From: Gammaproteobacteria bacterium
GTDB taxonomy: Bacteria > Pseudomonadota > Gammaproteobacteria > SURF-13
Assembly: GCA_035286765.1 (NCBI GenBank)
Contig: DATECT010000145.1
Coordinates: 1 to 31,020 of the forward strand
Direction: 5' to 3'
DNA: 31,020 bases
The notes under the pieces were generated by a model. It searched no databases, was not told the DNA's origin, and saw only the letters and a list, made by a program, of their open reading frames with translations. Positions 2,325 through 31,020 of this stretch are shown one piece after another; position 1 is the stretch's first letter, and the number at the start of each line of letters is the position of its first letter. Made by a program: the position numbers and the translations under genes.

Positions 2325-2329
2325 TAGGC

Positions 2330-2437: not shown

Positions 2438-2438
2438 T

Positions 2439-5017: not shown

Positions 5018-5059
5018 GTAATCCCATCTGGGGCTCAGTCTGAGCGCCTCCAAGAATAG

Positions 5060-7574
<2,515 letters not shown>

Positions 7575-7584
<10 letters not shown>

Positions 7585-7646: not shown

Positions 7647-7654
7647 CTTTTTAA

Positions 7655-8971
<1,317 letters not shown>

Positions 8972-9072
8972 GCCGTGTTTTTGACCTTCCCTGTATTAAG
9001 GGCTTATGCTTTAATTCGAATGCATTGCCAGATAAGGGCCCCGAATGAGCTTATGGGCAGGTAATTACGGAT

Positions 9073-9345: not shown

Positions 9346-9374
9346 TTTCACTAGAACTGATCTAATGGGAGTGG

Positions 9375-9396
9375 AAAAGTCTTTCCAGGACTTTTT
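9375..9396 (+). terminator. Possible weak intrinsic terminator or hairpin after ftsB
   Basis: AAAAGTC, 7-nt loop, GACTTTT(T), 30 nt after the ftsB stop. The stem is AT-rich and weak. Confidence 0.2.
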
Positions 9397-10001
9397 CGCC
9401 CAAGCAAAGCAAAACAGAGTTGTTCAACACCCTGCTAGACTGCTCTAACCGGGCAATACCGTGGTCAGCGTTAAGTGCGCTGCTCCCGCTCGCTACATTT
9501 TCCTATCCAGCGCCAAGTTTGCCGCGGTTGCATAAATCATCTAAAAATATTATTGCATGATCTGATAATCACATGTTATTGTGAATAAAAGGACCTTGTA
9601 TTGGCGGCAACGTTTATACAAGAGGCACTGGCTGGCACATCCTTGATGAAGCCAAACTATCCGGAAGAGATACGGCGCCCTAGGGGAATAAGAAATGCAA
9701 AGCAATGTTTGCTTATTGAAATACGCTGAGGGAATCACCCCCACCTGCGTACCCCCATTCTGTCTCCAAGACGTAACTTCCTCAGATATATCCAAGCAGA
9801 TATTAACTAAATCGTTGCCGGTTGCCTTGCATGGCAGGGCACGAGTCGTTGCGACTATACTGCAAGATTACTTATTCCGTTACCCAGCAAGAGGTGCTAG
9901 ATTTTTAAGGTGATTTAACGGCATTGCTCATCGATATGATATCGGTGAGCAATAGTCCGCTGCGGAGCTTTATTGTTTATTCAAGGACAAAGGGCAAAAG
10001 G

Positions 10002-13000
10002 ATGAGGCACCAAGCTAGCAATTACATTCACCAAATGTTTGCGGAAAGAAGCGCCTGCATCTCCGCCGCCACTGCGTTGGTTTACGGCCCTCGAAAGCTA
10101 AGTTACGGTGAATTGAATACACGCGCCAATCAACTGGCCCATTATCTACGCAAGCTAGGGATTGGACCCAATGTATTGGTGGGGCTTTGCTTAGAGAGCC
10201 CGTTGGACATGATTATCGGTCTCCTGGGAATACTCAAGGCGGGGGGCGCCTACCTGCCGTTGGATCCTTCCTACCCCTCCGAACGGCTGTCTTTTATGTT
10301 GAAGGATAGTCAAGCCGCATTATTGGTAACGGAGCAGTGCTTGGCCGCACACCTCTCGACGGAGGGTATAGCAAGCATTTTTCTAGATACAGCCGCCGCC
10401 ATTAGTGCAGAGCATGAATCAGCGCCTGCATATGAAGCAGATATTGATGATCTTGCCTACGTAATTTATACCTCCGGATCAACAGGCTTGCCCAAGGGCG
10501 TTATGGTAACGCAGCGGAATTTGGCTCATTCCACTCATGCCCGCATGAGCTATTACCAAGAACCTGTAGAGCGCTTTTTGCTACTTTCGTCATTTTCATT
10601 CGACAGTTCCGTGGCAGGGATATTCTGGACGCTTTGCCAGGGCGGCACACTGTTCTTACCGGAGCACGGTGTGGGGCGCGATCCCAATGGACTTAAAGCC
10701 GCCATCTTCGAATATCGGATTTCCCATCTATTATGCCTGCCTGCGCTCTATACAGAAATCCTGGCGCAGGCCGCTGCCTGGCAGCTGGCCTCACTGTGTA
10801 CGGTTATTGTTGCGGGAGAGGTCTGCCCCACGAAAATCGTCGATCAGCATAATATGCTCGCCGCGCAGGCTAAATTGTTTAACGAATATGGCCCTACCGA
10901 GGGCACCGTCTGGTGTGCCGTGTATGAATGCAAACCACACGAAAACAGGGCTCAAATTCCCATCGGTCGCGCCATTCCCAATACCCAAGTTTATCTATTG
11001 GATGAAGATCTGCAGCCTGTCCCGGCGGGCGCGGCGGGTGAGTTATACGTGGGCGGCCCTGGGGTGGCGCGGGGTTATCTTAATCGCCGAGAACTGACAG
11101 CCGAAAGGTTTATTGCTGATCCCTACAGTAATGAGCCGGGGGCCAGGCTTTATAAGACAGGCGACCTTGCGCGCCTTTTGGATGACGGTAATATTGAATT
11201 CCTGGGGCGCCTGGACCAGCAGGTGAAACTGCGCGGTTATCGCATTGAAGTAGGTGAAATATCAGCAGTATTGGAGTCGCACGAGGCGGTAGCGGAGGCG
11301 TTGATAATGGCGCGCGAGGACGTGCCCGGCGATAAGCGCCTGGTGGCGTATGTCGTCCCCGCGGCAGCACGGCAAGCGCACCATGACGGCCATCATACCC
11401 ACGGCTTAGCGCAGGACTCTGAGCATGTATCGCAATACCGGATTATCTACGATGATCTTTACCGGGGCGCGGAAGATTGTTCGATCTTTGATAGCGGTGT
11501 TAAGCGCAAGGTCTGGAGGAGCAGCTATAGCAAACAGCCTCTCATGGATGAAGATGTCCTTGAATGCGTGGACGACACAACGCGCAGGATTTTGGCGCTT
11601 CGCCCTAAGCGGGTCTTGGAAATCGGCTGCGGCACCGGTCTGTTGTTGTTCAGGATTGCCCCGCATTGTGAGTATTATTGCGGTATCGATATATCCCGGC
11701 AAGCCTTGGAACATATCAGGCGGATGGAAGCGCGGCAGCCTGTGCACTGCGAGCTAGCGCTGTTTCAGAAGGCGGCGCATGAATTGGCGGACATCCCCTG
11801 CGCAGAGATAGACACCCTTATTATCAATGAGGTTACCCAGCATTTCCCCAGCATTGATCATTTAATCGATGTCCTGGAAAAGGCTACGCGTGTCATCCGG
11901 CCGGGGGGGCATATCTTTATCGGCGGTATTCGCAGCCTGCCTTTGCTGGAGGTTTTCCATGCCTCTGTGCAATTGGAGCGCGCGCCCGCCGGACTAAGCC
12001 GGGCCGAGCTGCGTAAGCGCGTGCAAGATAGCATGTTAGCCGAGCAGGACCTGGTCATTGACCCTACCTTCTTCACCGCGCTGAAACAATACCTGCCGGC
12101 ACTTAGTCAGGAGCAGATTGAACTCAAGGGCGGACATCACCATAACGAGATCAGCCGTTTTAAATACGATGTCACGCTGCATGTCGGGCCGTCTGTCTGG
12201 GTAGAGGTGGATCTCCCTTGGCAGGATTGGCAGAAACAGGCCTTGACGACCATGGCGGTTCGCCAACAGTTATTGGATGGCCCGGATAGCGTGGCTATTC
12301 GGCATGTACCCAATGCGCGTCTGTTGACTGAGCTGCGCGTCATGGAATTATTAACTGCGGAAGAGGGCCCCGAGACGGCGGGGGAACTACGCAAAATTAT
12401 CGGTGCCTATCCACGTGAACCGGGTATTGAGCCGGAGAGCATGCGGGCCCTGGCGGAAGGCCTGCCTTACAGCGTTAATATCAGTTGGCCGGCCTCGGGC
12501 ATGCTCAGCCACTACGACGTCATATTTAAACGCCGTGCGCAGGGGCAGCCCATAGCCGCCCAGACTAACAAGCCTATGCCGCTAAGTGAAACTGCGCGTG
12601 CGGTATCTCTACAGTTGCCCAGAAACCAGCGGCCGTCCATGCAGTCGTCGGCAACTGCTCCCTGCGTTGCTCTACCTCCTGCATCCATGCAGTCGTATGT
12701 TAATAAACCGGTGAAGGTTAAGTTGAGCGTTGATCAAACGCGCAAGCTCATACCGGAATTGCGTAGCTTTTTGCAGGAGAAATTACCGGCCTATATGATC
12801 CCTGCGGATTTCGTGCTGCTGGACCACTTACCGCGCGGCTATAACGGTAAGGTCGATCGCTCCGCATTACCGGTGCCCGCGCATGTTAGGCCGGAATTAA
12901 GCAATGCATTTATTCCGGCCCAAAGTTCCTTGGAGAAGACGCTGGAAAAGATTTGGATGGATGTGCTAAAGCTTGCCCCGATCGGGCTGCAGGATAGTTT

Positions 13001-13214
13001 TTTTGAATTAGGCGGCCATTCCCTGCTGGCGATGCAGGTCATCTGGCGGGTGCGCGACGCCTTGCAGGTGGAGTTGTCGCTGCGCAGCTTTTTCGAGGCC
13101 CCGACCATCAGCGGTTTGGCGCAGAATATCCAGAGGTGGGAGCGTCCGGCGACCTTGCCCGGCCCATTAACCGACCGGGATCATGGGGGAAACCGTATTC
13201 AGGGCGAGATATAA
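10002..13214 (+). CDS. Stand-alone NRPS loading module: A domain interrupted by a methyltransferase, then T (A-MT-T). His-like specificity
   Basis: A3 YVIYTSGSTGLPKGV and A8 GRLDQQVKLRGYRIE, then a SAM motif VLEIGCGTG (11613-11639) before A9/A10 (LPAYMIP, NGKVDR), then T FFELGGHSL. No C domain. Manual code DSALIAEVWK. ATG 10002 chosen for its upstream AAGG(A); the frame is open from 9924. Confidence 0.93.
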   Translation: MRHQASNYIHQMFAERSACISAATALVYGPRKLSYGELNTRANQLAHYLRKLGIGPNVLVGLCLESPLDMIIGLLGILKAGGAYLPLDPSYPSERLSFMLKDSQAALLVTEQCLAAHLSTEGIASIFLDTAAAISAEHESAPAYEADIDDLAYVIYTSGSTGLPKGVMVTQRNLAHSTHARMSYYQEPVERFLLLSSFSFDSSVAGIFWTLCQGGTLFLPEHGVGRDPNGLKAAIFEYRISHLLCLPALYTEILAQAAAWQLASLCTVIVAGEVCPTKIVDQHNMLAAQAKLFNEYGPTEGTVWCAVYECKPHENRAQIPIGRAIPNTQVYLLDEDLQPVPAGAAGELYVGGPGVARGYLNRRELTAERFIADPYSNEPGARLYKTGDLARLLDDGNIEFLGRLDQQVKLRGYRIEVGEISAVLESHEAVAEALIMAREDVPGDKRLVAYVVPAAARQAHHDGHHTHGLAQDSEHVSQYRIIYDDLYRGAEDCSIFDSGVKRKVWRSSYSKQPLMDEDVLECVDDTTRRILALRPKRVLEIGCGTGLLLFRIAPHCEYYCGIDISRQALEHIRRMEARQPVHCELALFQKAAHELADIPCAEIDTLIINEVTQHFPSIDHLIDVLEKATRVIRPGGHIFIGGIRSLPLLEVFHASVQLERAPAGLSRAELRKRVQDSMLAEQDLVIDPTFFTALKQYLPALSQEQIELKGGHHHNEISRFKYDVTLHVGPSVWVEVDLPWQDWQKQALTTMAVRQQLLDGPDSVAIRHVPNARLLTELRVMELLTAEEGPETAGELRKIIGAYPREPGIEPESMRALAEGLPYSVNISWPASGMLSHYDVIFKRRAQGQPIAAQTNKPMPLSETARAVSLQLPRNQRPSMQSSATAPCVALPPASMQSYVNKPVKVKLSVDQTRKLIPELRSFLQEKLPAYMIPADFVLLDHLPRGYNGKVDRSALPVPAHVRPELSNAFIPAQSSLEKTLEKIWMDVLKLAPIGLQDSFFELGGHSLLAMQVIWRVRDALQVELSLRSFFEAPTISGLAQNIQRWERPATLPGPLTDRDHGGNRIQGEI
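12973..13105 (+). repeat. Direct repeat copy 1 (T-domain core of the A-MT-T gene)
   Basis: 133 nt with 5 mismatches against 15972-16104 by manual alignment. Confidence 0.92.
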
Positions 13215-14014
13215 AACCCACCATGACCATAGCTTTTTTGAGTGGGGTACCGCTGTAGTATTATTGTATTACCGACGGCAGGAAATATGACCCATGCCAG
13301 CGATGCGGCCAAGCCATATTTTTTTAAGGTAGAGGATAACAGTCAAACAGCAGGGCGAAACTCCGCGAGTTTGAGCAAAAGCGTAACGTTTATGAAACAG
13401 GTTTAAGCCTGGCTGACCCCCACGAGATCTTATTTAAGTTATTCATTTGATGTTATTTAATGTTTTTTAGGAAATAAAAAATAGCATACTGCCTATAGGC
13501 GTAAATAATTCTTACTTGGCATGTTAGTCCCCTTGCTTTTGCAGCGAATTTAGGCTATTTATGAAAGCTATAAACGGATAGATGTAACAAGTAGCTTATA
13601 ACAAAGGACAAGGACGTCATGGAAAGATCCTCGCATTCAATTTCCCCTAGTCGTTCTCTTCAACCATACCGTCTATACGGGTCGTTAACATTAAGGGGTT
13701 GCGTATACTTCGCAAGACAGAGAACGCTGATTGAGCGGCTGGGTATCGCGTTTCCCATTTTGCAGTATGTCCATAGTAACTTCGTCTCAACCTTTGACGT
13801 GTGGCATTGTCGGAGACATAAGGTGTGCCGCACCCCTCCGAGGCCGTCATTGATGGCGAAGGATAGTGGTGTACCGGTATTTTATGACAGCAGGTTGGCT
13901 GGTTATCCGAGGTATTCGGTGATGGCCGGATGGCTATTGCGGGGGATGTCTACCCCGCTGCAACACTCAAGTTCGTTACTAGAATAATCAGCAGCACCTC
14001 AGGGAGGAGGATAC

Positions 14015-16195
14015 GTGACAGTGGAAAGCATCGGGCATTCAGGACCATTACGGGAACTGCTGCTCACGCCTGGGCAAACGATTGCGATTACGGCCACCTT
14101 TACGGTGGAACCGCTGGAACAAGCGCTCAGCTTTTGGATGCGCGAACTCGCTATTCCATCTGACATTGAGTTTGCGCCCTATAATCAAATATTCCAGCAG
14201 TTGCTCGATCCGGCAAGTTTGCTTTCCAAAAACCACACTGGCATAAATGTGGTTCTGGTGCGGTTCGAAGATTGGCTGCGCTTCGATGTGCACCGTAATG
14301 AGCAGGAATCACGCTTACCGCATAGCCGGGAAAAAATTGAACGCAATATCAATGACCTGTTGCGCGCCCTGAAAGCGGCAACCGCACGCTCGGCAATTCC
14401 TTATCTTATCTGCGTATGCCCCGCCTCCACCGAGGTAGTTGCCGATGCCAACAGCCTGCCTTTCTTGGTAAAAATGGAAGAGCTGATGGCGGCGGAATTG
14501 GCCACCATCCCCGGTGCTTACCTGATCAGGTCGGCAGAGTTGACGGCCACATACCCGGTTGCGGTTTATTACGATGCGCACGGCGATAAACTAGCCCATA
14601 TCCCCTTTACCCCCCCCTTCTTTACCGCGCTGGCCACCATGCTGGCGCGCAAGATCCATGCGTTAAAGAGCAGCCCCCACAAGGTCATTGTGCTCGATTG
14701 CGACCAGACCTTGTGGAAGGGTGTGTGTGGGGAGGACGGTGCGCAGGGTATTGAAATCGATGCACCGCACAAGACCTTGCAAGAATTCATTGTGGCGCAG
14801 CATGCCATGGGCATGCTGGTTTGCCTATGTAGTAAAAACAATGAAGAAGACGTTATAGAGGTTTTTGATAGCCGCGACGATATGCCGCTGCGGCGCGAGC
14901 ATATCGTGGCCTGGCGCATCAACTGGGCGCGCAAATCGGAAAATTTGAAATCCCTGGCCGAAGAACTTCAATTAGGCCTGGATAGCTTTATCTTTATCGA
15001 TGATGACCCGGCCACCTGCGCGGAAGTTGAGGAAAGTTGCCCGGAAGTATTGACGGTGCTGCTCCCGCAAGATACTTGTGAGATAACTAAATTCCTGGGT
15101 CATATTTGGGCGTTTGATCGTTTAACCGTTACCCATGAGGATGCCGCGCGGACGGCATTTTATAAGCAAAATTTACAGCGCGAGCGCACCCGCAAAGAGG
15201 CGCTGAGCTTCGAGGACTTTCTGGCCGGTTTGGCCATCACTATCCGCATCTCGCCCTTGCAGCAACAGCATGTAGGCCGGGTTGCCCAACTGACGCAGCG
15301 TACCAATCAATTTAATTTCACCACGATCAGGCGCACGGAAGCCGATATTCAAACCTTGCTACACATGCCGAATGTCGAATGCCTGGTGGTGGAGGTCAGC
15401 GATCGCTTCGGTGACTACGGGTTAGTGGGAATGATGGTGTTTGAGCTTGCCGCCGCCACCTTGCAGGTCGATAGTTTTTTACTGAGCTGCCGTGCGCTCG
15501 GCAAGGGCATCGAGAATCGCATGTTGGCGGCATTGGGTGAAATCGCGCAAAGCAGGGGCTTGGCGGATGTCGAAGTTACCTATCTGCCCACTCAGAAAAA
15601 CAGATTGGCATATGACTTTCTAAGTGCATGGAATATGCCCTGTAGAAAACTTGCCAGTAACGGCACGAAATTCATTTTTCCCGCCGCGTTTGCCGCCAAG
15701 ATCAGCTTGCATCCGGTAACCCAAGAGCCGGCCAATCCCAGCGCTGTGCTCAACACCGCTTCCTCTTTAAGCACTCTGGCGCCTGTCCAGGCAGTCGGCA
15801 AATCAGCGCGCTTGAGGAGAATTTGCGAGGTGTTATCCGACCCCGAATACGTGCACAAGATCATTGGTTTGGCACGGCGACGTCCCCGTCCCCAGCTTAA
15901 AAAAAACTTTATACCACCCTACACCAGAATAGAAAAATTGCTAGCCGATATCTGGGAGAGTGTCCTAGGCGTTGCCCCGATCGGGCTGCAGGATAATTTT
16001 TTTGAATTAGGCGGCCATTCGCTGCTGGCGATGCAGGTCATCTGGCGGGTGCGCGATGCCTTGCAGGTGGAGTTGTCGCTGCGCGGTTTTTTCGAGGCCC
16101 CGACTATTACGGGGATGCTTCATAACATCCAGGCGTTAGGACGCCTGAATAATTTACCAGACCCATTAACAGATCGTATACAGGGGGAAATATGA
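14015..16195 (+). CDS. FkbH-like glyceryl transferase/phosphatase fused to a carrier (T) domain
   Basis: N-terminal IAITATFTVEPL...FAPYNQIFQQLLDP, HAD motif VIVLDCDQTLW, CSKNNEEDV, FIFIDDDP, QRTNQFN, DRFGDYGLVG, FLLSCRALG, then T FFELGGHSL. GTG start after GGAGGAGG. Confidence 0.92.
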   Translation: MTVESIGHSGPLRELLLTPGQTIAITATFTVEPLEQALSFWMRELAIPSDIEFAPYNQIFQQLLDPASLLSKNHTGINVVLVRFEDWLRFDVHRNEQESRLPHSREKIERNINDLLRALKAATARSAIPYLICVCPASTEVVADANSLPFLVKMEELMAAELATIPGAYLIRSAELTATYPVAVYYDAHGDKLAHIPFTPPFFTALATMLARKIHALKSSPHKVIVLDCDQTLWKGVCGEDGAQGIEIDAPHKTLQEFIVAQHAMGMLVCLCSKNNEEDVIEVFDSRDDMPLRREHIVAWRINWARKSENLKSLAEELQLGLDSFIFIDDDPATCAEVEESCPEVLTVLLPQDTCEITKFLGHIWAFDRLTVTHEDAARTAFYKQNLQRERTRKEALSFEDFLAGLAITIRISPLQQQHVGRVAQLTQRTNQFNFTTIRRTEADIQTLLHMPNVECLVVEVSDRFGDYGLVGMMVFELAAATLQVDSFLLSCRALGKGIENRMLAALGEIAQSRGLADVEVTYLPTQKNRLAYDFLSAWNMPCRKLASNGTKFIFPAAFAAKISLHPVTQEPANPSAVLNTASSLSTLAPVQAVGKSARLRRICEVLSDPEYVHKIIGLARRRPRPQLKKNFIPPYTRIEKLLADIWESVLGVAPIGLQDNFFELGGHSLLAMQVIWRVRDALQVELSLRGFFEAPTITGMLHNIQALGRLNNLPDPLTDRIQGEI
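15972..16104 (+). repeat. Direct repeat copy 2 (T-domain core of the FkbH-T gene)
   Basis: 133 nt with 5 mismatches against 12973-13105. Confidence 0.92.
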
Positions 16196-19100
16196 ATCCA
16201 CTACTCTCGCCGCAGCCAGTCATGCAGGAGCCTCAGCCATCCATCCGCGAATTCCTGGCCCAGTTACGCACCCAAGGGGTGGTCATGTGGCCGGAGGGTG
16301 AGCGACTGCGGTTTAGCGCCCCCAAGGAGTGCCTCACTCCCGAGTTCTACAGCGCCTTAGCGGCGCGCAAGGTCGAGATTATGCATGTCTTGGCGGATGA
16401 CGCCGCCCCGGCCCCGGCGTCATTGCCGGCGTGCGATCATGCCAGCCCCTGTATCTCTTTTGCCCAGCAGCGCCTGTGGTTCCTCCACCAGTTGGCCCCC
16501 GATAGCCCGGTGTATAACATCCCGCTGCTGCTGGATGTGCGCCGCGTGTTGCAGATCGCCGTCTTGCAGCGTGCCTTGACTGAAATAGTGCGCCGCCACA
16601 GTGTGCTGCGTGCCGTTTATGTTCCCGGTAGCAACCCCCCGCGGCTCCACGTGCAACCGCCTTACGAGGTCGCCCTGCCGCTTATCTCGCTGACCGAAAG
16701 CGACCGTGCCAGCCGCCGCAGCCGGGCTCAAGCCCTCGCCGAAGCAGCCGCACGCGAGCCCTTCGATCTGGAGCACGGCCCCTTGCTGCGCGCCCATGTA
16801 TGGAGGTTGGAGCCGGAACAACACCTGTTGCTTATCAGTCTTCATCACAGCGTCTCTGACGGCTGGTCGAGCGGGGTATTGCTGAGTGAATTGGGCAGTC
16901 TTTACAGTGCCTTGGTGAGAGGTCAGACCATGCCCTTGGCACCCTTGCCTATTCAGTATGCGGATTATGCCCACGCCCAGCGCGCGGCCCTGCAAGGTCC
17001 GGCCCTGGATGAACAATTAGGCTATTGGAAACAGCAACTGGCCGATAGCCCGGCCCTGCTGACCTTGCCCAGCGACCGCCCGCGTCGCGGCACGCCGCGC
17101 TTTCAGGGGGCATTGGCCTACAGCCGTTTGCCGGCGGATCTAGTGGGCGAGTTGCAGGCCTTGAGCCGGCGTGCTGGAGTCACCTTGTTTATGACCCTAT
17201 TGGCTGCCTTCCAGGGCTTATTGGCGCGCTACAGCGGTCAGCATGACATCGTGGTGGGGGCACCTATCGCCGGGCGCACCGAACAGGCTACCGAGGGTTT
17301 GATCGGCTGCTTTATCAATACCCTGGCCCTGCGCACCGACCTGAGCGGGGATCCGAGTTTTATGGAATTACTCAAGCGGGTGCGGGAGACGGCCCTGGAG
17401 GCCTACGCCCACCAGGAACTGCCCTTCGATAAGTTGGTGGAGGCCCTGCAGCCGGAGCGCAATCTCAGCCACACGCCGTTCTTTCAAACGGTGTTTGTGT
17501 TGCACAACACGCCCCAGGAGGGCTTGCACTTCACCGATTTGAGCGTTACCGCGCTACCTATCCACACCGGCACGGCCAAGTTTGACCTGAGCTTGGCGGC
17601 CACCGAGACCCCCGCCGGGCTGGACTGCGAACTCGAATACAACACCGACCTGTTCGATGCGACCACTGCCGAACGCCTGCTCGGCCACTTCCGGACCCTG
17701 CTGGACGGCATCGTAGCCGACCCCACGCAGCGGCTGGGGCAGTTGCCGCTGCTCACGCCCGCCGAGCGTACCGCATTGCTGGCACCGCCCGCGCCGCCCG
17801 CCGCCGCGCCGAGCACCACCCTCACCGCCCTGTTCGAGGCCCAGGCGGTACGCCGCCCGCAGGCCATTGCAGCGGTGTATGAGGAGCAGCGCCTGAGCTA
17901 TCACGACCTCAACACCCGCGCCAACCAACTGGCCCACTACCTGCAGCAGCAGGGTGTCGGCCCCGAGCAAGTCGTCGGTCTGTGCCTGGAGCGCGGCCCC
18001 GACCTGCTCATCGGTCTGCTCGCCATCCTCAAGGCTGGCGGCGCCTACCTGCCGCTCGACCCCGGCTACCCGCCAGAGCGCTTGGCCTTCATGCTGGCCG
18101 ACAGCCAAGTCCGCCTGGTCATCACCCACAGCAGCCTCGGCGTCGCCCTGCCCGCTGACCGCTCGCGGCTCTGTCTGGACCAGCTAGCGACCGCCTTGGC
18201 CGCCCAGCCCGGCGCCAACCCCGTGACCACCGCCCGGCCCGAGCAGCTCGCCTACATCATCTACACCTCCGGCTCCACCGGCAAACCCAAGGGCGTGATG
18301 ATCACCCAGGCCAACGTCCTGCGCCTGTTTACGGCCACCGAGCCCTGGTTTCACTTTACCGAACACGACGTATGGACCCTGTTCCACTCCTACGCCTTCG
18401 ACTTCTCGGTGTGGGAGATCTGGGGGGCCTTGTTGTACGGCGGCACCCTGGTGATCGTGCCTTATGCCGTTAGCCGCGCCCCCGAGGCCTTCTACCAGCT
18501 GTTACATCAGGAAGGGGTCACCGTGCTCAACCAGACCCCCTCGGCCTTCCGCCAACTGAGCCACGCCGAACAGCAACTCGGCCCCCAGCCGCTGGCCTTG
18601 CGCTACATCATCTTCGGCGGCGAGGCCCTGGAGTTACAGAGCCTGAAGCCCTGGCTGGCGCGCCACGGCGACAGCGCCCCCCAACTCATCAACATGTACG
18701 GCATCACCGAGACCACCGTGCACGTCACCTACCGGCGCATCACCCTCGAGGACGTGGAGGCCCAGCGCGGCAGTGTGATCGGCGTGCCCATCCCCGACCT
18801 GCAGGCCTATTTGCTCGACCAATACGGCCAACCCGTGCCGATCGGCGTGCCGGGCGAGATCCACGTCGGCGGGGCGGGGCTGGCGCGCGGCTACTTGAAC
18901 CGTCCGGAGCTCAGCGCCGCGCGCTTCATCCCGCACCCCTTCAGTGACGTCCCCGGGCAGCGGCTGTACAAGTCCGGCGACCTGGCGCGCTACCTCAACA
19001 ACGGCGAGTTGGACTACCTGGGGCGCATCGATCAGCAAGTGAAGCTGCGCGGCTTCCGTATCGAGCTGGGCGAGATCGAGGCGGCGCTCAGCCAGCATGC

Positions 19101-19686
19101 CGGCGTGCGCGAGGCGGTGGTGCTATTGCGCGAGGACAGTCCCGGCGATCAACGTCTGGTTGGCTACTGGACCGGGCAAGGCGATCCGCTGCCGAGCACC
19201 CAGGACCTGCGTCAACATCTCAAGACCCAGCTTCCCGATTACATGGTGCCCTCTAACCTGGTGTGGCTGGAGGCGTTGCCGCTCACCGCCAACGGCAAGG
19301 TAGACCAGCGCGCCTTACCGCGCCCGGAGGATCATGCCGAACGCGAGCTTGCCTACGTCCCGCCCGCCACCTTACTGGAGCAGTCTATCGCGAGCGTATG
19401 GCAGGAGGTGCTGCAAGTCGAGCAGGTGGGACGTGAGGATAATTTCTTTGATTTAGGCGGGCACTCCATGCTCATGGTGCGTGTGCATAGCCGCTTACGG
19501 GAACTACTGGGTAAAGAAATCTCTGTCATTCAATTGTTTCAATACCCCACTGTGAGGGCGCTCGCACAATGCTTATCCCAAGCCGGGCCGCTTGCTCCTA
19601 CAGCCGCCTTAGCCGGGGTCATCGCTCACGCTGCGCGGCAAAAGGCCGCGCAGCAGCGTCATCGTCATGAGGCTAGAAGGGTATGA
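16192..19686 (+). CDS. NRPS module betaHD(TubC_N-like)-C-A(Thr)-T
   Basis: N-terminal IREFLAQLRTQGVVMWPEGERLRFSAPKECLTPEFYSALAARKVEI docking domain. C motif HHSVSDGWS. A code DFWNIGMVHK, the canonical Thr code. T FFDLGGHSM. Confidence 0.95.
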   Translation: MNPLLSPQPVMQEPQPSIREFLAQLRTQGVVMWPEGERLRFSAPKECLTPEFYSALAARKVEIMHVLADDAAPAPASLPACDHASPCISFAQQRLWFLHQLAPDSPVYNIPLLLDVRRVLQIAVLQRALTEIVRRHSVLRAVYVPGSNPPRLHVQPPYEVALPLISLTESDRASRRSRAQALAEAAAREPFDLEHGPLLRAHVWRLEPEQHLLLISLHHSVSDGWSSGVLLSELGSLYSALVRGQTMPLAPLPIQYADYAHAQRAALQGPALDEQLGYWKQQLADSPALLTLPSDRPRRGTPRFQGALAYSRLPADLVGELQALSRRAGVTLFMTLLAAFQGLLARYSGQHDIVVGAPIAGRTEQATEGLIGCFINTLALRTDLSGDPSFMELLKRVRETALEAYAHQELPFDKLVEALQPERNLSHTPFFQTVFVLHNTPQEGLHFTDLSVTALPIHTGTAKFDLSLAATETPAGLDCELEYNTDLFDATTAERLLGHFRTLLDGIVADPTQRLGQLPLLTPAERTALLAPPAPPAAAPSTTLTALFEAQAVRRPQAIAAVYEEQRLSYHDLNTRANQLAHYLQQQGVGPEQVVGLCLERGPDLLIGLLAILKAGGAYLPLDPGYPPERLAFMLADSQVRLVITHSSLGVALPADRSRLCLDQLATALAAQPGANPVTTARPEQLAYIIYTSGSTGKPKGVMITQANVLRLFTATEPWFHFTEHDVWTLFHSYAFDFSVWEIWGALLYGGTLVIVPYAVSRAPEAFYQLLHQEGVTVLNQTPSAFRQLSHAEQQLGPQPLALRYIIFGGEALELQSLKPWLARHGDSAPQLINMYGITETTVHVTYRRITLEDVEAQRGSVIGVPIPDLQAYLLDQYGQPVPIGVPGEIHVGGAGLARGYLNRPELSAARFIPHPFSDVPGQRLYKSGDLARYLNNGELDYLGRIDQQVKLRGFRIELGEIEAALSQHAGVREAVVLLREDSPGDQRLVGYWTGQGDPLPSTQDLRQHLKTQLPDYMVPSNLVWLEALPLTANGKVDQRALPRPEDHAERELAYVPPATLLEQSIASVWQEVLQVEQVGREDNFFDLGGHSMLMVRVHSRLRELLGKEISVIQLFQYPTVRALAQCLSQAGPLAPTAALAGVIAHAARQKAAQQRHRHEARRV

Positions 19687-22600
19687 ACAGTTTAAACGCC
19701 GACGCCGCTGACCAAATCGCCGTTGTGGGAATGGCGGGCCGTTTCCCCGGGGCTAAAAATATTGAAGCCTTTTGGCGTAACTTGCAGAAGGGCGTGGAAT
19801 CGATTGTCTTCTTTAAAGATGAAGAATTGGAGTCGCTGAATCTCGATGCGGCTTTATTAGGCGATCCGAGTTACATCAAGGCGCGTGCCATTTTAGACGA
19901 CGCCGAATCGTTTGATGCCGGTTTTTTCGGCTTTAAACCGAAAGAGGCCGAACTCACCGATCCGCAGCAACGGATTTTTCTGGAGTGCGCGTGGGAGGCC
20001 TTGGAAAATGCCGGTTATGACCCGGAAAATTATCCGGGCGCCATCGCGGTGTATGCGGGCGCCGGCTCCAATACCTATTTACTTAATCACCTCTACCCTA
20101 ATCATACGGCGTACGAATTAAGCAGCCTGGCTGCGATGATCGGCAACGACAAGGACTTTCTCGCCACGCGCGTATCGTACAAGCTCAATCTGCGCGGGCC
20201 GAGCGTGAGCGTGCAAACGGCTTGTTCCACCTCGCTGGTAGCCGTGTCCATGGCCTGTAACAGCCTGCTGAGCTATCAGTGCGATATGGCCCTGGCGGGC
20301 GGCGTGTCGGTTAGCTTCCCGCAGCGGCGCGGTTATTTATATCAAGAGGGCGGCATTCTCTCGGGCGACGGCCATGTGCGCGCCTTCGATGAACGGGCGC
20401 AAGGCATGCTGGCAGGTCATGGTGCGGGCATCGTGGTATTGAAGCGCCTCAGCGAGGCGCTGGCCGACGGCGACACGATCTGGGCGGTGATTAAAGGCAC
20501 TGCCATGAATAACGATGGTGCGCAGAAGGTCGGCTACACCGCCCCTAGCGTGGATGGGCAGGCCGAGGTGATCGCCCTGGCGCAGGCCCTGGCCGACGTG
20601 ACGCCGGACACCATTAGCTATGTGGAGGCACATGGCACCGGCACCCCCTTGGGCGACCCGATTGAAATTGCCGGTCTCACGCAGGCATTTCGGCTAGGCA
20701 CGGAGGCAAAAAACTTTTGTGCCATCGGTTCGGTAAAGACCAATGTAGGCCATTTGGATATCGCCGCCGGTGTGACGGGATTGATTAAAACCGTGCTGGC
20801 CTTAAGGCATAAACAATTGCCGCCCAGTCTGAATTTTGAGCGTCCCAATCCCAAGATCGATTTTGCCAATAGCCCGTTTTATGTGAACACCGAACTGCGC
20901 GAGTGGGAGACGGCAGGCACGCCGCGCCGCGCCGGCGTGAGTTCGTTCGGGATCGGCGGCACCAATGCGCATGTGGTCGTGGAAGAGGCCCCTGTGGTAG
21001 CGAGTTCCAGCCCGGCGCGTCCCTGGCAATTGCTGACGCTGTCCGCCAAAACCGCTACGGCGCTCGACACCGCTACGACAAATTTAGCCGAGCATTTAGC
21101 GCAACACCCCGAGCTCAATTTGGCGGATGCTGCTTATACCCTGCAACTGGGCCGCCGCGGTTTTCAGCACCGCCGTATAGTGGTGTGCCGAGATCACGCG
21201 GATGCGATTTCCTTACTCCAAACACCCGATGCTAATCGCGTCGTCAGCCAAACGCTTAACTCTACTCAGACAGCGGTGAGCTTCATGTTCCCCGGCCAGG
21301 GCGCGCAGTTTATTAATATGGGCCGGGAGTTATATGAGACCGAGCCGGTTTACCGGCAGCACATTGATAGTTGCGCGGAATTGCTGTTGCCCGAACTCGG
21401 GTTGGATCTGCGCAGCGTGTTATACCCGGACGCTGATCAGGCCGAGACGGCACAACAGCAATTAACCCAGACCGGCATCACCCAACCCGCACTGTTTGCC
21501 GTGGAATATGCCACGGCGCAATTGTGGATGGCGTGGGGTATTACGCCGCAAGCGTTGATTGGCCATAGCATCGGCGAATACGTGGCGGCCTGTTTGGCCG
21601 GCGTGTTTTCGCTGCCGGAGGCACTGGCCTTGGTGGCGGCACGCGCCCGGCTGATGCAGGCGCTGCCCGCCGGCGCGATGCTGGCCATTCGCCTGCCGGA
21701 GCAAGAGGTCGTGCCGTTGCTCGGCAATGGCATTGCACTGGCCGCGGTCAACAGCCCCGCCTTGTGTGTGGTATCCGGTGCGCACGCCGCCATCGAGGCC
21801 CTGCAACAACAACTCACCGAGCATGAGATCGGGCAGCGCCGTTTGCATACTTCCCATGCCTTTCACTCGGCGATGATGGAACCCATGTTAGCGGCCTTTG
21901 ACGAGCAGTTGACTAAGGTGAAACTACGCGCCCCTCAGATCCCGTATATCTCCAATGTCACGGGCACGTGGATTACTGCCGCGCAGGCCACCGATCCGCA
22001 TTATTGGACTATGCATATACGCCAGACCGTGCGCTTCTCAGACGGCCTGCAAGCGCTGTTTAGCGACAGGAATAGCGTGTTGCTGGAAGTTGGGCCAGGC
22101 CAGACCTTAACGACATTGGCCAGGCAACATTCGGCCAAATCCGGCGCGCAACTTATTGTGGCCTCCGGTTATCCGGTGCAGGAGCCGGGTTCGGATAGGG
22201 CGGCGCTACTTACCGCGCTGGGGCGCTTATGGCTGGCCGGAGTGACTATCGATTGGCGACTGGTTCACCAACCCGAACAACGCCAACGGGTGCCGCTACC
22301 GGCCTATCCCTTCGAGAGAAGGCGCTATTTTGTAGAGGTACCCGCGTTAGCAAAAAATATGACAGCACAAGTATTGAATAATAAATCAGTAGATTGTGTG
22401 ACCCGCTTCACTCAGCAAGCTGATAGGGCGGTTAGAAATGAAAAAGATAAGGAGATCACCATGGCTGATGCCCAGGTAGTTACACCATCCAACTCATCTG
22501 GCCGGCAGGCGCGGCTGGTGCCGCAATTGCAAAGTCTATTGAGTGAATTATCCGGCATGGACTTGGCAAGCGTGAGTACCACGACGACATTTCTCGAGAT

Positions 22601-25600
22601 GGGGTTTGATTCGCTGTTTCTCACCCAGCTCAGCCAGGCCCTGCAGAAAAAATTCGGTATCAAGGTCGCATTTCGCCAATTGCTGGGCGAGTCGGCCACG
22701 CTTACCAGCCTGGCTACGTACATCGATCAGCAATTGCCGGCGGAGGCCTTCCAAGAAGCACCTCACCAACCCTCGGCCGTAGCGGGCAACATTGAGTCAG
22801 TGTCCGCGCAGACAGCCTCTCTATTAATGCCTGCGCCGGATAGCGTCCAGACCAATACTTCAACACCGGCTGCGGCAAGCGTATTGGAACGCGTCATCGC
22901 CCAACAACTGCAACTTATGGCGCAGCAATTGGCGCAACTGCGTACCAGTGCAGCGCCTGCCTCGGTAGCCGCCGCGTCTTTACCGGCGCCACATGGCGAA
23001 TGGAGCATGACCGGGGTAGCGCATGATAACGTCACTCAACAGACTGTCAAAAAGGACGAGGTCAAGGCCTTTGGGCCGTACAAACCCATCGTGAAGGGCG
23101 CGAGCGGCGGGTTGACCGGACAGCAGCAGGCGCATCTAAATGAATTGGTGGCGCGCTATACGCAGCGCACCGCGGAATCCAAACGCTATACGCAGGAACA
23201 TCGCCCGCATCTCACTGACCCGCGTGCGGTGTCAGGTTTCCGCTTACTGTGGAAAGAGATGGTCTACCCGGTAGTTGCCGCGCGTTCCTCCGGCTCAAAG
23301 ATTTGGGATGTCGACGGTAATGAATACATCGACCTGACCATGGGCTTTGGCGTGAATTTATTCGGCCACTCGCCGCCTTTTGTCATAACCGCGTTGGAGG
23401 AACAACTCAAACTCGGCATTGAAATCGGCCCCACTTCACCGCTGACCGGGCAGGTGGCGCAACTGCTCTGCGAGTTGACCGGCATGGAGCGCGCCATCTT
23501 TTGCAATACCGGTTCCGAGGCCGTGATGGCGGCCTTGCGCGCGGCGCGCACTGTCAGTGGGCGCGACAAGATTGCGCTGTTCTCCGGTGCTTACCATGGC
23601 ATCTTCGACGAGGTGCTGGTGCGCGGCCACGCGACCGCGGACGGCAAACCGCATTCCCTGCCGATTGCACCCGGCATCCCCGAACACATGGTGCAAGATG
23701 TATTAGTGCTGGAGTATGGCACACCGGCCGCGTTGCAGATGCTCAAGGCGCATGGCCATGAACTGGCCGCCGTGATAGTGGAGTCGGTGCAGAGCCGTCG
23801 TCCGGATTTACAGCCCAGGGAATTTTTACATGAGCTGCGGCGCATCACGCAACAAACCGGCACGGCGCTCATCTTCGACGAAGTGATTACCGGGTTTCGC
23901 GCGCACCCGCAAGGCGCGCAGGGCTGGTTCGGGGTGCAGGCCGATCTTGCCACCTACGGCAAGGTCATCGGTGGCGGCATGCCCATCGGCGCAGTGGCGG
24001 GCAAGGCCGCTTATCTGGATGTGTTTGACGGCGGCGCCTGGCAATATGGCGATAACTCCTTCCCGGAGGTCGGTGTCACCTTTTTTGCAGGTACCTTCGT
24101 GCGTCATCCGTTGGCCCTGGCAGCGGCTTGGGCAGTGTTGAATCACCTCAAGAGCAGCGGCCCCGAATTACAACAGCGTTTGAATCAGCGTACTACTGAA
24201 TTTATTAACGACCTTAATAGCTTTTTCCAGGCACAACAAGCGCCGGTGCGCATCGCGCATTTTAGCTCGCTCTTCTATATCAGCTTCGAGGGCGAACAAA
24301 AATACGCCAGCCTATTGTTTTATCATTTACGCGAGAAGGGCGTGCACGTATGGGAAGGGCGTCCCTGCTTTTTATCCACGGCGCATTCCGATGCCGACAT
24401 CGTCCGCATTACGCAGGCCTTCAAAGACAGCGTGATGGCCCTGCAAGACGGCGGATTTTTCCCGCCTGCGCCCGCGCCGCGCGGCGGACTCGCAGTCCCC
24501 GACCATGCCGCCGACGCTACGCCGGCGCAGGCATCCGCATCCACGCCATCTGCGCCCACCAGCGTGGCGCTCACCGAGGCGCAGCGCGAATTATGGGTGG
24601 CGGCGCAAATGAGCACGGAAGGCTCGCGCGCCTACAACGATTGCCTCACGCTGGCGTTGCACGGCCCTTTGAACAAAGCGGCACTGTATAAAGCCTTGCA
24701 GAATCTAGTGGCGCGCCATGAGGCGCTGCGTACCACCTTCAGCGCCGCGGGCGACGTGCAGCACATCGCGACGCACGGCCAACTGGAGTTGCACGGCGTG
24801 GATTTATCGAACGTAGCGGCGTCGCAGCGCGAACACGCTCTGCACGCCCACCTACAGACCGGCGCCCAGCGCGAATTTGACTTGGTGCACGGACCGCTGG
24901 TGCGCGCCGAACTGGTCACACTCGAACCCAAGCACCATGTGCTGGTGGTCACCGCGCACCATATCGTGTGCGACGGCTGGTCGTTGGGCGTACTGTTTCG
25001 AGAACTGAGCGAACTGTACAACGCCGCCCACGAAAATCGATCCGCCGCACTGCCCCCGGCGCTGGCGTTCAGCACGTATGCGGCGTGGCAGGAGCGTCCC
25101 GAGCAGGTAGAGGCGCGCCGCCGCGCGGAAGATTATTGGGTGCAACAATACGCCGAACCCGCCCCGGCATTGGATCTGCCCACCGACCGGCCCCGTCCGG
25201 CACAACGTTCCTACCGGGGCGCGCGCCACGTCGCGCGGCTCGATGCGGCGCTGTACGCACAACTCAAACGCGCCGGCGCGCAGCAGGGCGCGACCCTATT
25301 CACGGTGCTGCTTACGGCCTACATGACCTGGCTACAGCGCCTCACCGGCCAAGACGATGTAGTGATCGGTGTGCCGGCGGCGGGGCAATCGCTGATCGAG
25401 GGCGGCGAGCACCTGCTCGGGCACTGCGTCAACTTTTTACCGCTGCGTCAGCGCTTGGATATGACGGCGAATTTCAACGACGCGCTGCGCGCCGTGCAAG
25501 ATAACGTGCTGGAGACCTATGAACACCAGCAATGCACCTACGGCAGTCTCATCCGCCGACTCGCCTTGCCGCACGACCCGAGTCGCGCGCCATTGGTGAG

Positions 25601-27812: not shown

Positions 27813-27843
27813 CATGAGTGCGGAAATGAAAGGGGAAGGAAAC

Positions 27844-30800: not shown

Positions 30801-31020
30801 CCCCGGCGCGACCCAGGCAGGCCCCAGCTACACGGCCCCGCGCGACAATTTAGAACTGCAACTGAGCAAGATCTGGGAGCGCCTGCTACGCGTGCCGGCG
30901 GTGGGTATCCACGACAACTTCTTCGAACTCGGCGGCCACTCGCTGCTGGCGGTGCGCTTGGTGGCGCAAATCGAAAAGATCTGGGGCAAAAACGTACCGC
31001 TGGCCACGCTGTTTCAAGCG
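27844..31020 (+). CDS. NRPS module C-A(Val)-T, 3' partial (absent from the ORF track because it has no stop in the window)
   Basis: Translated manually: MVDMNSAQEELLALLLEEQG...LSFAQQRLWFLEQW, C motif HHIIFDIWS, A3 YVMYTSGSTGTPKGV, code DAFWLGGTFK (Val), NGKLDR, T DNFFELGGHSLL. In-frame ATGs at 27814, 27844 (after GAAGGA) and 27853. Confidence 0.93.
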   Translation, partial: MVDMNSAQEELLALLLEEQGIDTEQAPPLTPRARNTPPPLSFAQQRLWFLEQWEQGSAAYNICDAARLSGVLKVDILERALSEIVRRHEVLRTTFKSIEGTPVQVIHPATPLNLPLIDLRLLPRPQREAEVLRMAGEAARQLFNLDQGPLLRVTLLRVDEHEHVLLLTIHHIIFDIWSRKVFRRELHTLYEAYLQGRAAPLAELPIQYADYAYWQREWLQSGLQAQQMAYWKERLGGALPVLELPADYPRPAQQTFNGALVSRVLPDALSQALLHLGQREGATLFMTLLAAFKALLHRYTGQHDIIVGTPIANRSRIETEGLIGFFLNTLALRTDVSGDPSFTELLIRVREQALQAYDHQDLPFERLVEELQPTRDPSHSPLFQVMFVLQNDVQQSVGLPGVTFTPLEVDNHTAKFDLTVFVIESGRRLTTHFEYNTDLFSEQTVAPWLDHWQTLLEGIVADPAQRLSELPLLSAPERHRLLVEWNPWPPFPTEQTLAGLFEAQVERTPHAIAVAFEDRVLSYDELNGRANQLAHRLRALGVGPEVLVGLCMERSLELVVGLLGILKAGGAYVPLDPGYPKERLAFLLEDTGVRVLVAQQRLVAQLPAHRARVLCLPSAALEEESRANPVSGVRPDHLAYVMYTSGSTGTPKGVAVPQRAVARLVTHTDYVTLGPEQVFLQFAPLAFDASTFELWGALLNGGKLVVFPPHTPTLAELGTTLQARRITTLWLTAGLFHAMVDEQLWAFQGVRQLLAGGDVLSVPHVQRFLAAHPGCRLINGYGPTENTTFSCCYTIPPHAALGRAVPIGRPIAHTQAYILDAYCHPVPIGVFGELYLGGAGLARGYHNRPELTAEKFIPHPFSPDPSARLYKTGDLARYLPDGNIEFLGRTDHQVKIRGFRIELGEIEAVLSAHPSIKEAVVIAREDTPGDKRLVAYLAASPAPSSQELRNYLMARLPEYMLPAIFVILDALPLTPNGKLDRKALPAPGATQAGPSYTAPRDNLELQLSKIWERLLRVPAVGIHDNFFELGGHSLLAVRLVAQIEKIWGKNVPLATLFQA

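What the first reader, a model, noticed from the sequence alone, without database searches (positions are those of the whole stretch)
10002..16400. Two unrelated starter proteins share one docking address: a possible starter-switch or branching NRPS
Seen: neither the A-MT-T protein nor the FkbH-T protein has a C domain. They have near-identical T cores and end in LPGPLTDRDHGGNRIQGEI* and LPDPLTDRIQGEI*. The next protein begins with a single TubC_N-like beta-hairpin docking domain followed by C. Known: short C-terminal motifs ending in GEI-like residues bind beta-hairpin docking domains (tubulysin TubC, rhabdopeptide NRPSs, enacyloxin), and alternative starter modules exist (anabaenopeptin AptA1/AptA2), but those swap one amino acid for another. 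Inference: both an N-methyl-His-S-T and a glyceryl-S-T dock on the same Thr module. That gives either two product series, with a cationic amino acid cap or a neutral dihydroxy acid cap, or a branched product in which the C domain acylates both the Thr amine and its hydroxyl. Only three C domains are visible for five loaded carriers.
Basis: partly seen in the sequence, partly recalled or inferred. Interest (0 to 1): 0.85.

Follow-up and report, generated by a model that had tools for sequence, protein, structure and literature searches.

The report
Two different loaders, one docking address
In a soil bacterium's peptide-polyketide gene cluster, a histidine-loading enzyme and a glycerate-loading enzyme both end in the same short, selectively conserved docking peptide, and only one matching docking domain exists, so the assembly line can probably be started in two chemically different ways.

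Summary
A-MT-T (10002-13214; A code DSALIAEVW, a published His code) and FkbH-T (14015-16195) have no C domain. They share a 45-codon T core (96% DNA identity) and end in LPGPLTDR(DHGGNR)IQGEI* and LPDPLTDRIQGEI*. The next protein starts with the only TubC_N docking domain in the MAG.

New evidence:
- The T core is a recent gene-conversion patch (pS 0.15). The two tails are saturated at synonymous sites (pS 0.84) but almost unchanged in protein (pN 0.03), while the linker between them has drifted (pN 0.40). Both tails have therefore been kept by selection.
- The cluster is a variable island between eno-ftsB and ispD. One relative has A-MT-T(SLiM)|bHD-C-A, translationally coupled, with no FkbH. 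Another, 99% complete, has A-MT-T without a SLiM, then a fused FkbH-T-C-A(Thr)-T, the PKS-NRPS, C-A-T-TE and a PPTase. That line has three C domains and no docking domain.

Each loader is therefore a natural donor for this kind of C domain, and no extra C lies downstream.

Most likely reading (about 0.45): alternative priming by glycerate or N-methyl-His. Branched use, or a bypassed relic starter, remain possible. Binding and products are untested, and the complex prediction was uninformative. I class this as a new variant of known SLiM-bHD docking and alternative-starter logic.

The parts
10002..13214 (+). A-MT-T loader: an adenylation domain interrupted by a methyltransferase, then a carrier domain and the docking tail. 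There is no C domain. The 9-residue specificity code is DSALIAEVW (His).
   Evidence: Pfam; code from the alignment; the code is listed as His-activating in PMC12283262; core motifs A3-A10 and GGHS are intact.
12975..13109 (+). Carrier-domain core of A-MT-T: copy 1 of the 135-bp gene-conversion patch.
   Evidence: pS 0.15 and pN 0.02 against copy 2, while the flanks have pS about 0.8.
13155..13211 (+). C-terminal docking tail (SLiM) of A-MT-T: LPGPLTDRDHGGNRIQGEI.
   Evidence: over the 13 tail codons shared with the FkbH-T tail, pS is 0.84 and pN 0.03.
13215..14014 (.). 800-bp AT-rich spacer (45% GC) between the two loader genes. It ends in a strong Shine-Dalgarno (GGGAGGAGG) before the GTG at 14015.
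   Evidence: No Rfam match. No homology to cluster proteins, to the rest of the MAG or to relatives. The ORF at 13619-13987 has no Pfam hit.
14015..16195 (+). FkbH-T loader: FkbH_N, the HAD-IIIC/FkbH glyceryl-loading domain (residues 222-538), a carrier domain and the docking tail. There is no C domain.
   Evidence: NCBIfam TIGR01686 and TIGR01681. FkbH_N by atlas. The DCDQT and LLSCR motifs are read.
15974..16108 (+). Carrier-domain core of FkbH-T: copy 2 of the conversion patch.
16154..16192 (+). C-terminal docking tail (SLiM) of FkbH-T: LPDPLTDRIQGEI. Its stop codon overlaps the next gene's ATG (ATGA).
   Evidence: The tail is kept (L>V plus one synonymous change) in a 92%-identical relative in a groundwater run.
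16243..16392 (+). Beta-hairpin docking domain (TubC_N), the only one in the MAG.
16453..17781 (+). Condensation domain C1 (SFAQQRLWFL, HHSVSDG), which would receive the starter.
   Evidence: It is 59% identical (whole module) to the G006 C1 module, which is fused behind FkbH-T.
17833..19686 (+). A(Thr; DFWNIGMVH)-T of module 1.
19683..27812 (+). KS-AT(malonyl, HAFH)-ACP-aminotransferase-C-A(DTKDLGLVD, Glu-like)-T.
27814..31020 (+). C-A(DAFWLGGTF, Val-like)-T, cut by the contig end. By synteny a TE and a PPTase gene should follow.
   Evidence: G006 synteny.

Best explanation
The cluster is a four-module NRPS-PKS line: Thr, then malonate with beta-transamination, then a Glu-like residue, then Val. 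It has two separate C-less loading proteins.

Shown:
- A-MT-T loads His and carries a methyltransferase.
- FkbH-T is a glycerate loader.
- Both carry a nearly identical carrier core and the same C-terminal peptide, LPxPLTDR...IQGEI.
- The Thr module carries the only beta-hairpin docking domain.

Inferred:
- Each loader's tail binds that docking domain and presents its thioester to the donor site of C1.
- The line is therefore primed either with glycerate or with (N-)methyl-His, and makes two product series that differ in the cap.
- FkbH-T is translationally coupled to the line and is probably the stoichiometric, default starter.
- A-MT-T sits behind an 800-bp AT-rich spacer and may be expressed separately, which would make the ratio of the two series regulatable.
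- The arrangement arose by recombination in a variable island. A glycerate-primed block was joined to an older A-MT-T(SLiM)|bHD-C synthetase, with duplication of the T-SLiM cassette.
For: - Domains and tails are confirmed.
- Both tails are under purifying selection independently of the recent T-core conversion. In the tail, 8.0 synonymous changes fall on 9.5 sites and 1.0 nonsynonymous change on 29.5 sites. In the adjacent linker, 14 nonsynonymous changes fall on 35 sites. Fisher p is 4e-4 for tail against linker and 5e-6 for synonymous against nonsynonymous within the tail.
- Only one TubC_N domain and three C domains exist in the MAG.
- A relative at the same eno-ftsB site has A-MT-T ending in YVQGEL* overlapping by 4 bp a bHD-C-A gene. 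Its docking domain is 48-60% identical to the window's in 40-residue windows. Its junction CAGGGGGAGCTATGA resembles the window's FkbH-T|M1 junction CAGGGGGAAATATGA.
- In G006 the orthologous C1 is fused directly behind FkbH-T, so this C takes glyceryl as donor.
- Free-standing A-MT-T(SLiM) followed by bHD-C-A-T-TE, and FkbH-T ending in EEG[IV]L* followed by bHD proteins, both recur in unrelated clusters.
- A-MT-T is intact and about 50% identical between three lineages whose housekeeping genes are 80-88% identical.
- Literature: SLiM-bHD pairs are promiscuous and the rhabdopeptide NRPS uses two SLiMs on three bHDs (PMC9113145). Alternative starter modules are known in anabaenopeptin AptA1/AptA2 and in the puwainaphycins (PMC8402340). 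FkbH loading modules are known in NRPSs (PMC8609519; PMC8949500).
Against: - No binding evidence: complex prediction scored 0.17, below its mark, which the tool states is no evidence either way.
- In G006 the A-MT-T is conserved and intact but has no SLiM, there is no docking domain in that 99% complete genome, and FkbH-T is in cis. A-MT-T can therefore persist without this address, which fits a different or vestigial role as well as this one.
- No second example of two different loaders sharing a tail was found in about 160 fetched loci.
- C1 looks like an ordinary LCL-type domain. Its tolerance for both an N-methyl aminoacyl and a hydroxyacyl donor is assumed, not shown.
- No expression data: only DNA runs were found.
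- The MAG is 76% complete and the contig ends inside module 3.
Confidence: 0.45

Rival explanations
1. Relic starter. A-MT-T is the former loader of an ancestral two-module synthetase, A-MT-T(SLiM)|bHD-C-A(Val)-T-TE. It was displaced when the FkbH-primed block was inserted. It still carries the address but contributes little or nothing to the present product.
For: - The relative L111 and the unrelated loci L109 and L110 show the simple A-MT-T|bHD-C-A(-T-TE) form.
- The C-A(Val) of L111 is closer to the window's last module (54%) than to module 1 (45%).
- G006 keeps A-MT-T with no SLiM and no bHD.
- The island carries debris elsewhere: G010 has a free C domain with a truncated A-domain stub.
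- A-MT-T is separated from the operon by an 800-bp spacer.
Against: - The ORF is intact with all core motifs in three lineages at about 50% identity.
- The tail has pN/pS 0.04 at saturated pS, so the SLiM was maintained long after the duplication.
- The recent conversion of the T core keeps the carrier matched to FkbH-T's.
Confidence: 0.2
2. One branched product. Both loaders dock in turn on the same docking domain, and C1 acts twice on Thr-S-T, making an amide with one donor and an ester on the Thr hydroxyl with the other. Alternatively the second acyl group goes onto another nucleophile of the chain, such as the beta-amine made by the aminotransferase.
For: - The carrier/condensation count is unbalanced. 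There are six carriers, three C domains and one KS, both here and in the complete G006 cluster.
- A-MT-T and FkbH-T co-occur in two genera.
- C domains that acylate one acceptor twice (myxochelin MxcG, vibriobactin VibF) and ester-forming C domains (vioprolide; PMC8949500) are known. The first two examples are from my own knowledge.
Against: - Nothing in the C1 sequence sets it apart from ordinary LCL domains.
- The relative L111 lacks FkbH altogether, so the pair is not obligatory.
- There is no precedent for one C domain using two chemically different donors on one residue.
Confidence: 0.13
3. A-MT-T serves another step. Its MeHis-S-T is used elsewhere, for example offloaded by the TE onto the finished chain or handed to an enzyme encoded outside the contig. 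In that case the shared tail only reflects common descent of the T-SLiM cassette.
For: G006 shows A-MT-T functioning, if it functions at all, without the SLiM-bHD pair. The MAG is incomplete.
Against: Selection on the tail needs a binding partner, and the only bHD found is on M1. The complete G006 island holds no further candidate enzyme: only a PPTase follows, then ispD.
Confidence: 0.1
4. Assembly artefact. The repeated T core caused a chimeric join, so the two tails are not really in one genome.
For: The region holds a 135-bp repeat at 96% identity, and the Logan contigs break exactly at the repeat (13028 and 16026).
Against: The longest exact shared run, about 35 bp read by eye from the alignment, is far below the k=141 of the source assembly. 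One contig spans A-MT-T tail, spacer, FkbH and the FkbH T core in three samples. Independent ENA and JGI contigs carry the same proteins, and one carries both.
Confidence: 0.02

Closest known systems
SLiM / beta-hairpin docking (TubB-TubC, rhabdopeptide Kj12A-C, enacyloxin Bamb_5915, EpoA-EpoB)
   Same: An N-terminal TubC_N domain sits before a C domain, and a short charged C-terminal peptide ending in GE[IL] sits on the upstream carrier. In the rhabdopeptide NRPS two SLiMs serve three docking domains (PMC9113145).
   Different: In the known cases the competing carriers belong to like modules (amino-acid modules), or one SLiM recruits several docking domains. Here two enzymatically unrelated loaders, adenylation-based and FkbH-based, carry the same SLiM for a single docking domain.
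Anabaenopeptin AptA1/AptA2 and the puwainaphycin alternative starters
   Same: Two separately encoded starter units feed one downstream assembly line and give product families that differ at the first position (PMC8402340).
   Different: Those pairs are paralogues of one enzyme type and swap one amino acid or one fatty acid for another. Here the swap would be a cationic N-methyl amino acid against a neutral dihydroxy acid. The shared element is only the T-SLiM cassette, and nothing here is shown at the product level.
FkbH-primed NRPSs (SuoB of suomilide, dysinosin; vioprolide and cystomanamide FkbH modules)
   Same: An FkbH domain loads glycerate on a carrier in place of an A domain, and a C domain joins it to the next residue (PMC8609519; PMC8949500). 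Relative G006 has exactly FkbH-T-C-A(Thr)-T.
   Different: In the window the FkbH-T is a separate protein that needs a docking tail, as in some cyanobacterial clusters, and it shares that tail with a second loader.
McyE / MycA-type KS-AT-ACP-aminotransferase-C-A-T modules
   Same: Module 2 has the same domain order, including a Glu-like A domain as in McyE. The McyE comparison is from my own knowledge.
   Different: Here the module extends a short capped Thr rather than a long polyketide or fatty chain. This module is context for the finding, not the finding itself.

Membership tests
SLiM-beta-hairpin docking pair | N-terminal alpha-beta-beta-alpha-alpha docking domain (Pfam TubC_N) in front of the acceptor's catalytic domain | tested here: met
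   PF18563 at residues 18-67, 52.7 bits against a cut-off of 26. It aligns to 2JUG, 8AQQ and 5T7Z.
SLiM-beta-hairpin docking pair | Short disordered C-terminal peptide after a carrier domain, with charged residues and a hydrophobic last residue | tested here: met
   Both proteins end in RIQGEI after the T domain. The orthologous pair in relative L111 ends in YVQGEL, and the cyanobacterial FkbH-T proteins end in EEG[IV]L.
SLiM-beta-hairpin docking pair | [quoted passage not shown] | tested here: inconclusive
   Complex prediction scored 0.17 (mark 0.34), which the tool declares no evidence either way. Indirect support: purifying selection on both tails.
FkbH glyceryl-loading domain | HAD-IIIC phosphatase plus FkbH-specific C-terminal part with DxDxT and a conserved Cys, followed by a carrier | tested here: met
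   TIGR01686 at 307.8 bits (cut-off 146.65) and TIGR01681. VLDCDQT and LLSCR are read. FkbH_N by atlas. PP-binding at 642-702.
FkbH glyceryl-loading domain | Loads glycerate from 1,3-bisphosphoglycerate | not testable with these tools
   Inferred from family membership only.
Methyltransferase-interrupted A domain (A-MT-T) | SAM methyltransferase inserted between motifs A8 and A9 of an intact A domain | tested here: met
   AMP-binding at 48-386, partial AMP-binding_C at 445-482, Methyltransf_12 at 565-664, T at 1006-1067. The A8 and A10 motifs are read.
Methyltransferase-interrupted A domain (A-MT-T) | N-methylation (rather than O- or other methylation) of the loaded residue | not tested
   The closest homologues are generic NRPS A-MT-T modules. 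No diagnostic test was run.
Alternative-starter NRPS (AptA1/AptA2 type) | Two starter subunits encoded in one cluster with the same interface to one downstream subunit | tested here: met
   Shared T core and tail, and a single docking domain.
Alternative-starter NRPS (AptA1/AptA2 type) | Two product series differing only in the starter | not testable with these tools
   The organism is uncultured and no chemistry is available.

The most novel reading that the evidence does not exclude
One condensation domain is addressed through one docking domain by two chemically unrelated donors, and it uses both on the same Thr (amide plus ester, or amide plus a later N-acylation). This would give a branched, doubly capped product from a line that is one C domain short. 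That would be a programmed double use of a C domain with two different donors.
Probability: 0.12. Interest if true: 0.85.

Novelty: new variant of a known kind. Interest (0 to 1): 0.62.

Why it matters
If both loaders really feed C1, nature has done what NRPS engineers attempt. It has plugged a different kind of starter enzyme into an existing line by copying only a carrier-plus-docking cassette of about 100 residues. The relatives preserve the other states of this process: the simple A-MT-T|bHD-C form, the double-loader form seen here, and the fused FkbH-T-C form.

The system gives a natural, minimal test bed for three questions:
- How much of starter choice is set by the T-SLiM cassette and how much by C-domain gatekeeping.
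- Whether expression of a separately transcribed loader can switch the cap of a metabolite.
- How concerted evolution (gene conversion) keeps two carriers compatible with one partner.

Tried and rejected
- Complex prediction of M1 residues 1-90 with A-MT-T residues 1025-1096 scored 0.17. The controls were not run and the result is unusable.
- Methoxymalonyl or hydroxymalonyl extender pathway for FkbH-T: rejected. No FkbK/FkbI/FkbG-type genes occur in the window or in the complete G006 island, the AT is malonyl-type HAFH, and FkbH-T is fused in front of C1 in G006.
- An acyltransferase role for the 220-residue N-terminus of FkbH-T: rejected. It is the ordinary FkbH_N/BF1531-like domain found in this whole subfamily.
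- An inactive A domain in module 2 that A-MT-T might complement in trans: rejected. All its motifs are intact.
- Mosaic origin of C1 (donor lobe from the L111-type C domain): the sliding-window identity shows no clear breakpoint.
- Direction of the T-core transfer: GGHS against GGDS is not diagnostic, since 31 of 79 FkbH-T homologues have GGHS, and the identity matrix is indecisive.
- Spacer 13215-14014: no Rfam family, no protein remnant, no repeat. The promoter and terminator scans were at background level.
- A search for a second double-SLiM case in 79 FkbH-T loci and 80 A-MT-T loci found none. L155 has both domain types, but inside one colinear megasynthase.
- No RNA run holding the locus was listed, so expression could not be checked.

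Full report
**What is there.**

The window is a whole MAG contig (G000:C145). The MAG is 1.64 Mb in 241 contigs, 76% complete, 56.7% GC. Near-identical DNA occurs in three soil metagenome runs.

Bases 1-8971 carry dnaE, accA, tilS, pyrG, kdsA and eno, and ftsB follows at about 9072-9344. The gene cluster then reads:

| Gene | Coordinates | Domains |
|---|---|---|
| A-MT-T | 10002-13214 | loader, no C domain |
| spacer | 13215-14014 | 800 bp, 45% GC |
| FkbH-T | 14015-16195 | loader, no C domain |
| M1 | 16192-19686 | bHD-C-A-T |
| M2 | 19683-27812 | KS-AT-ACP-aminotransferase-C-A-T |
| M3 | 27814-31020 | C-A-T, cut by the contig end |

FkbH-T, M1, M2 and M3 are translationally coupled, with overlapping or abutting stop and start codons. 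FkbH-T has a strong SD (GGGAGGAGG) before its GTG start.

**Check of the observation.**

- Both tails read exactly as reported.
- Neither loader has a C domain.
- The FkbH domain scores 307.8 bits against a cut-off of 146.65.
- The docking domain is a clear TubC_N and aligns to the solved TubC, AerJ and EpoB domains.
- The two carrier cores are 43/45 residues identical and differ at 7 of 135 bases.
- The MAG has one TubC_N and three C domains in all.
- The arrangement is reproduced in other samples and in independent assemblies.

The specificity codes were read from an alignment of the A domains:

| Module | Code | Assignment |
|---|---|---|
| A-MT-T | DSALIAEVW | listed as His-activating in PMC12283262 |
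| M1 | DFWNIGMVH | Thr |
| M2 | DTKDLGLVD | near the Glu code DAKDLGVVDK, which I recall from memory |
| M3 | DAFWLGGTF | Val-like |

The AT is malonyl-type (HAFH), and the KS, ACP and aminotransferase motifs are intact.

**Are the shared tails meaningful?**

I compared the two T-plus-tail regions codon by codon with the Nei-Gojobori method.

| Segment | Codons | pS | pN |
|---|---|---|---|
| T core | 45 | 0.15 | 0.02 |
| Upstream flank | 30 | 0.77 | 0.45 |
| Linker after the T domain | 15 | 0.80 | 0.40 |
| Tail (LPxPLTDR + IQGEI) | 13 | 0.84 | 0.03 |

The T core is a recent gene-conversion patch. The flank and the linker have drifted at both kinds of site.

The tail is different. Eight synonymous changes fall on 9.5 synonymous sites, but only one nonsynonymous change falls on 29.5 sites. 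The nonsynonymous rate in the tail is lower than in the linker (Fisher p = 4e-4). Within the tail, synonymous changes exceed nonsynonymous ones (p = 5e-6).

The tails therefore lie outside the recent conversion, are old, and have each been held to the same peptide by selection. This is the strongest evidence available here that both are working docking motifs. The only docking domain found is the one on M1.

**Comparative genomics.**

The cluster is a variable island at one chromosomal site, between eno-ftsB and ispD, in a family of small-genome Gammaproteobacteria.

| Genome | Island, in gene order |
|---|---|
| G006 (another genus, 99% complete) | A-MT-T (1035 aa, tail ...ARREHPEAVARNERTR*, no SLiM); fused FkbH-T-C-A(Thr)-T (1833 aa, no bHD); KS-AT-T-AMT-C-A-T; C-A(Val)-T-TE; PPTase; ispD |
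| L111 (metagenomic relative) | eno-ftsB; A-MT-T ending in YVQGEL*, overlapping by 4 bp a bHD-C-A(Val) gene; no FkbH |
| G010 | eno-ftsB; free C domain with an A-domain stub; FkbH-T; KS-AT-T-AMT-C-A-T-TE; C-A-T-TE; PPTase |

- G006 has no TubC_N anywhere in its genome.
- Housekeeping proteins are 80-88% identical between G000 and G006. The cluster proteins are 50-64% identical and collinear.
- The docking domain of L111 is 48-60% identical to the window's in 40-residue windows.

Four conclusions follow:
- The complete line has three C domains, so the missing 3' end of the window should not hide another bHD-C.
- The orthologue of C1 takes glyceryl-S-T in cis, so glycerate is a secure donor.
- A-MT-T(SLiM)|bHD-C is a natural pair in this same island family, so the A-MT-T tail is a true address for this kind of docking domain.
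- A-MT-T is kept intact in three lineages at about 50% identity.

Both pairings also occur separately in unrelated clusters. FkbH-T proteins ending in EEG[IV]L* are followed by bHD proteins in several cyanobacteria. Free-standing A-MT-T proteins ending in EQGAL* or EEGTL* are followed by bHD-C-A-T-TE. I found no second locus in which the two loader types share one tail.

**How it probably works.**

The domains, the selected tails and the single docking domain are shown. The rest of this section is inference.

Both loaded carriers dock through the same SLiM on the M1 docking domain and enter the donor site of C1. C1 joins either glycerate or methyl-His to Thr. The KS then adds malonate and the aminotransferase converts the beta-keto group to an amine. 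A Glu-like residue and Val follow, and a TE should release the chain, by synteny with G006.

The recent conversion of the carrier core fits a need for both carriers to fit the same C-domain surface, but conversion alone is neutral evidence.

FkbH-T is co-translated with the line. A-MT-T sits upstream of an AT-rich spacer and could be regulated separately. I found no promoter evidence above background.

The junction of FkbH-T and M1 (CAGGGGGAAATATGA) resembles the A-MT-T|bHD junction of L111 (CAGGGGGAGCTATGA) more than the window's own A-MT-T end does (CAGGGCGAGATATAA). This hints that the FkbH catalytic part was recombined in front of the ancestral T-SLiM|bHD junction and that the T-SLiM cassette was duplicated. 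This is weak evidence, and the direction of the later conversion is undetermined.

**Rivals.**

- **Relic starter.** This reading draws on G006, where A-MT-T has no address, and on the debris in G010. It is opposed by the selection on the tail and by the intact ORFs.
- **Branched product from double use of C1.** This would explain why two genera keep one carrier more than the condensing domains can serve. It has no sequence support and no precedent with two different donors.
- **A-MT-T used at another step.** This needs a partner that neither island encodes.
- **Assembly artefact.** This is excluded for practical purposes.

**Comparison with what is known.**

SLiM-bHD docking and its promiscuity, including two SLiMs on three docking domains in the rhabdopeptide NRPS, are established (PMC9113145). 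Alternative starter modules are known for the anabaenopeptins and puwainaphycins (PMC8402340). FkbH loading modules in NRPSs are known from suomilide and dysinosin, and from vioprolide, where a C domain esterifies the glycerate (PMC8609519; PMC8949500).

What is new is the combination. An adenylation-type loader and an FkbH-type loader carry the same selected address and a homogenised carrier for one C domain, and the relatives display the other evolutionary states. I class it as a new variant of a known kind. It is of moderately high interest because it is directly testable and bears on NRPS engineering.

The double-address arrangement has not been reported by the scan on other DNA.

Noticed in passing
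window 9372-9440: A short intergenic element just after ftsB recurs at 79-96% identity on at least nine other contigs of the MAG (C203, C176, C82, C168, C123, C32, C19, C156, C154). It overlaps a hairpin found by the terminator scan (9413-9436, minus strand) and is probably a REP-like repeat.
   Followed up: partly
window 9924-31020 against L018/L101 (G006), L020 (G010) and L111: The site between eno-ftsB and ispD is a recombination hot spot that carries four different NRPS-PKS layouts in one bacterial family. The layouts include module swaps (Val module directly after the docking domain in L111), a protein fusion (FkbH-T-C in G006) and two TE-ending proteins in G010.
   Followed up: partly
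L020:1451-2953 (G010): A free-standing 500-aa C domain with an N-terminus like DCL or dual E/C domains (YPLSPLQQGMLFHH). It ends in the first approximately 45 residues of an A domain and then stops. It looks like a truncated C-A gene left upstream of FkbH-T, and it is at most 32% identical to the other C domains of the island.
   Followed up: partly
window 9924-16195 against 16192-31020: There is a GC step inside the cluster. The two loader genes are 53-55% GC and the spacer 45%, while the three downstream genes are 62-65%. The genome average is 56.7%. This is consistent with a composite origin of the island.
   Followed up: no
window 19683-27812: A McyE-like KS-AT-ACP-aminotransferase-C-A(Glu-like)-T module directly follows a Thr module. 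It would turn capped Thr into a 3,4-diamino-5-hydroxy acid. The free beta-amine is a candidate nucleophile for TE cyclisation or for a second acylation.
   Followed up: partly
window 13619-13987: A 122-aa ORF inside the spacer has no Pfam hit and no relatives among the fetched loci. It is probably not a gene.
   Followed up: partly
Read-laying run X5 (groundwater) on window 8000-21000: A relative about 92% identical in DNA carries A-MT-T, FkbH-T and M1, but nothing aligns to 13208-13641, so the spacer is replaced or diverged there. Its FkbH-T tail reads VPDPLTDRIQGEI. Its A-MT-T tail could not be read from the truncated output.
   Followed up: no
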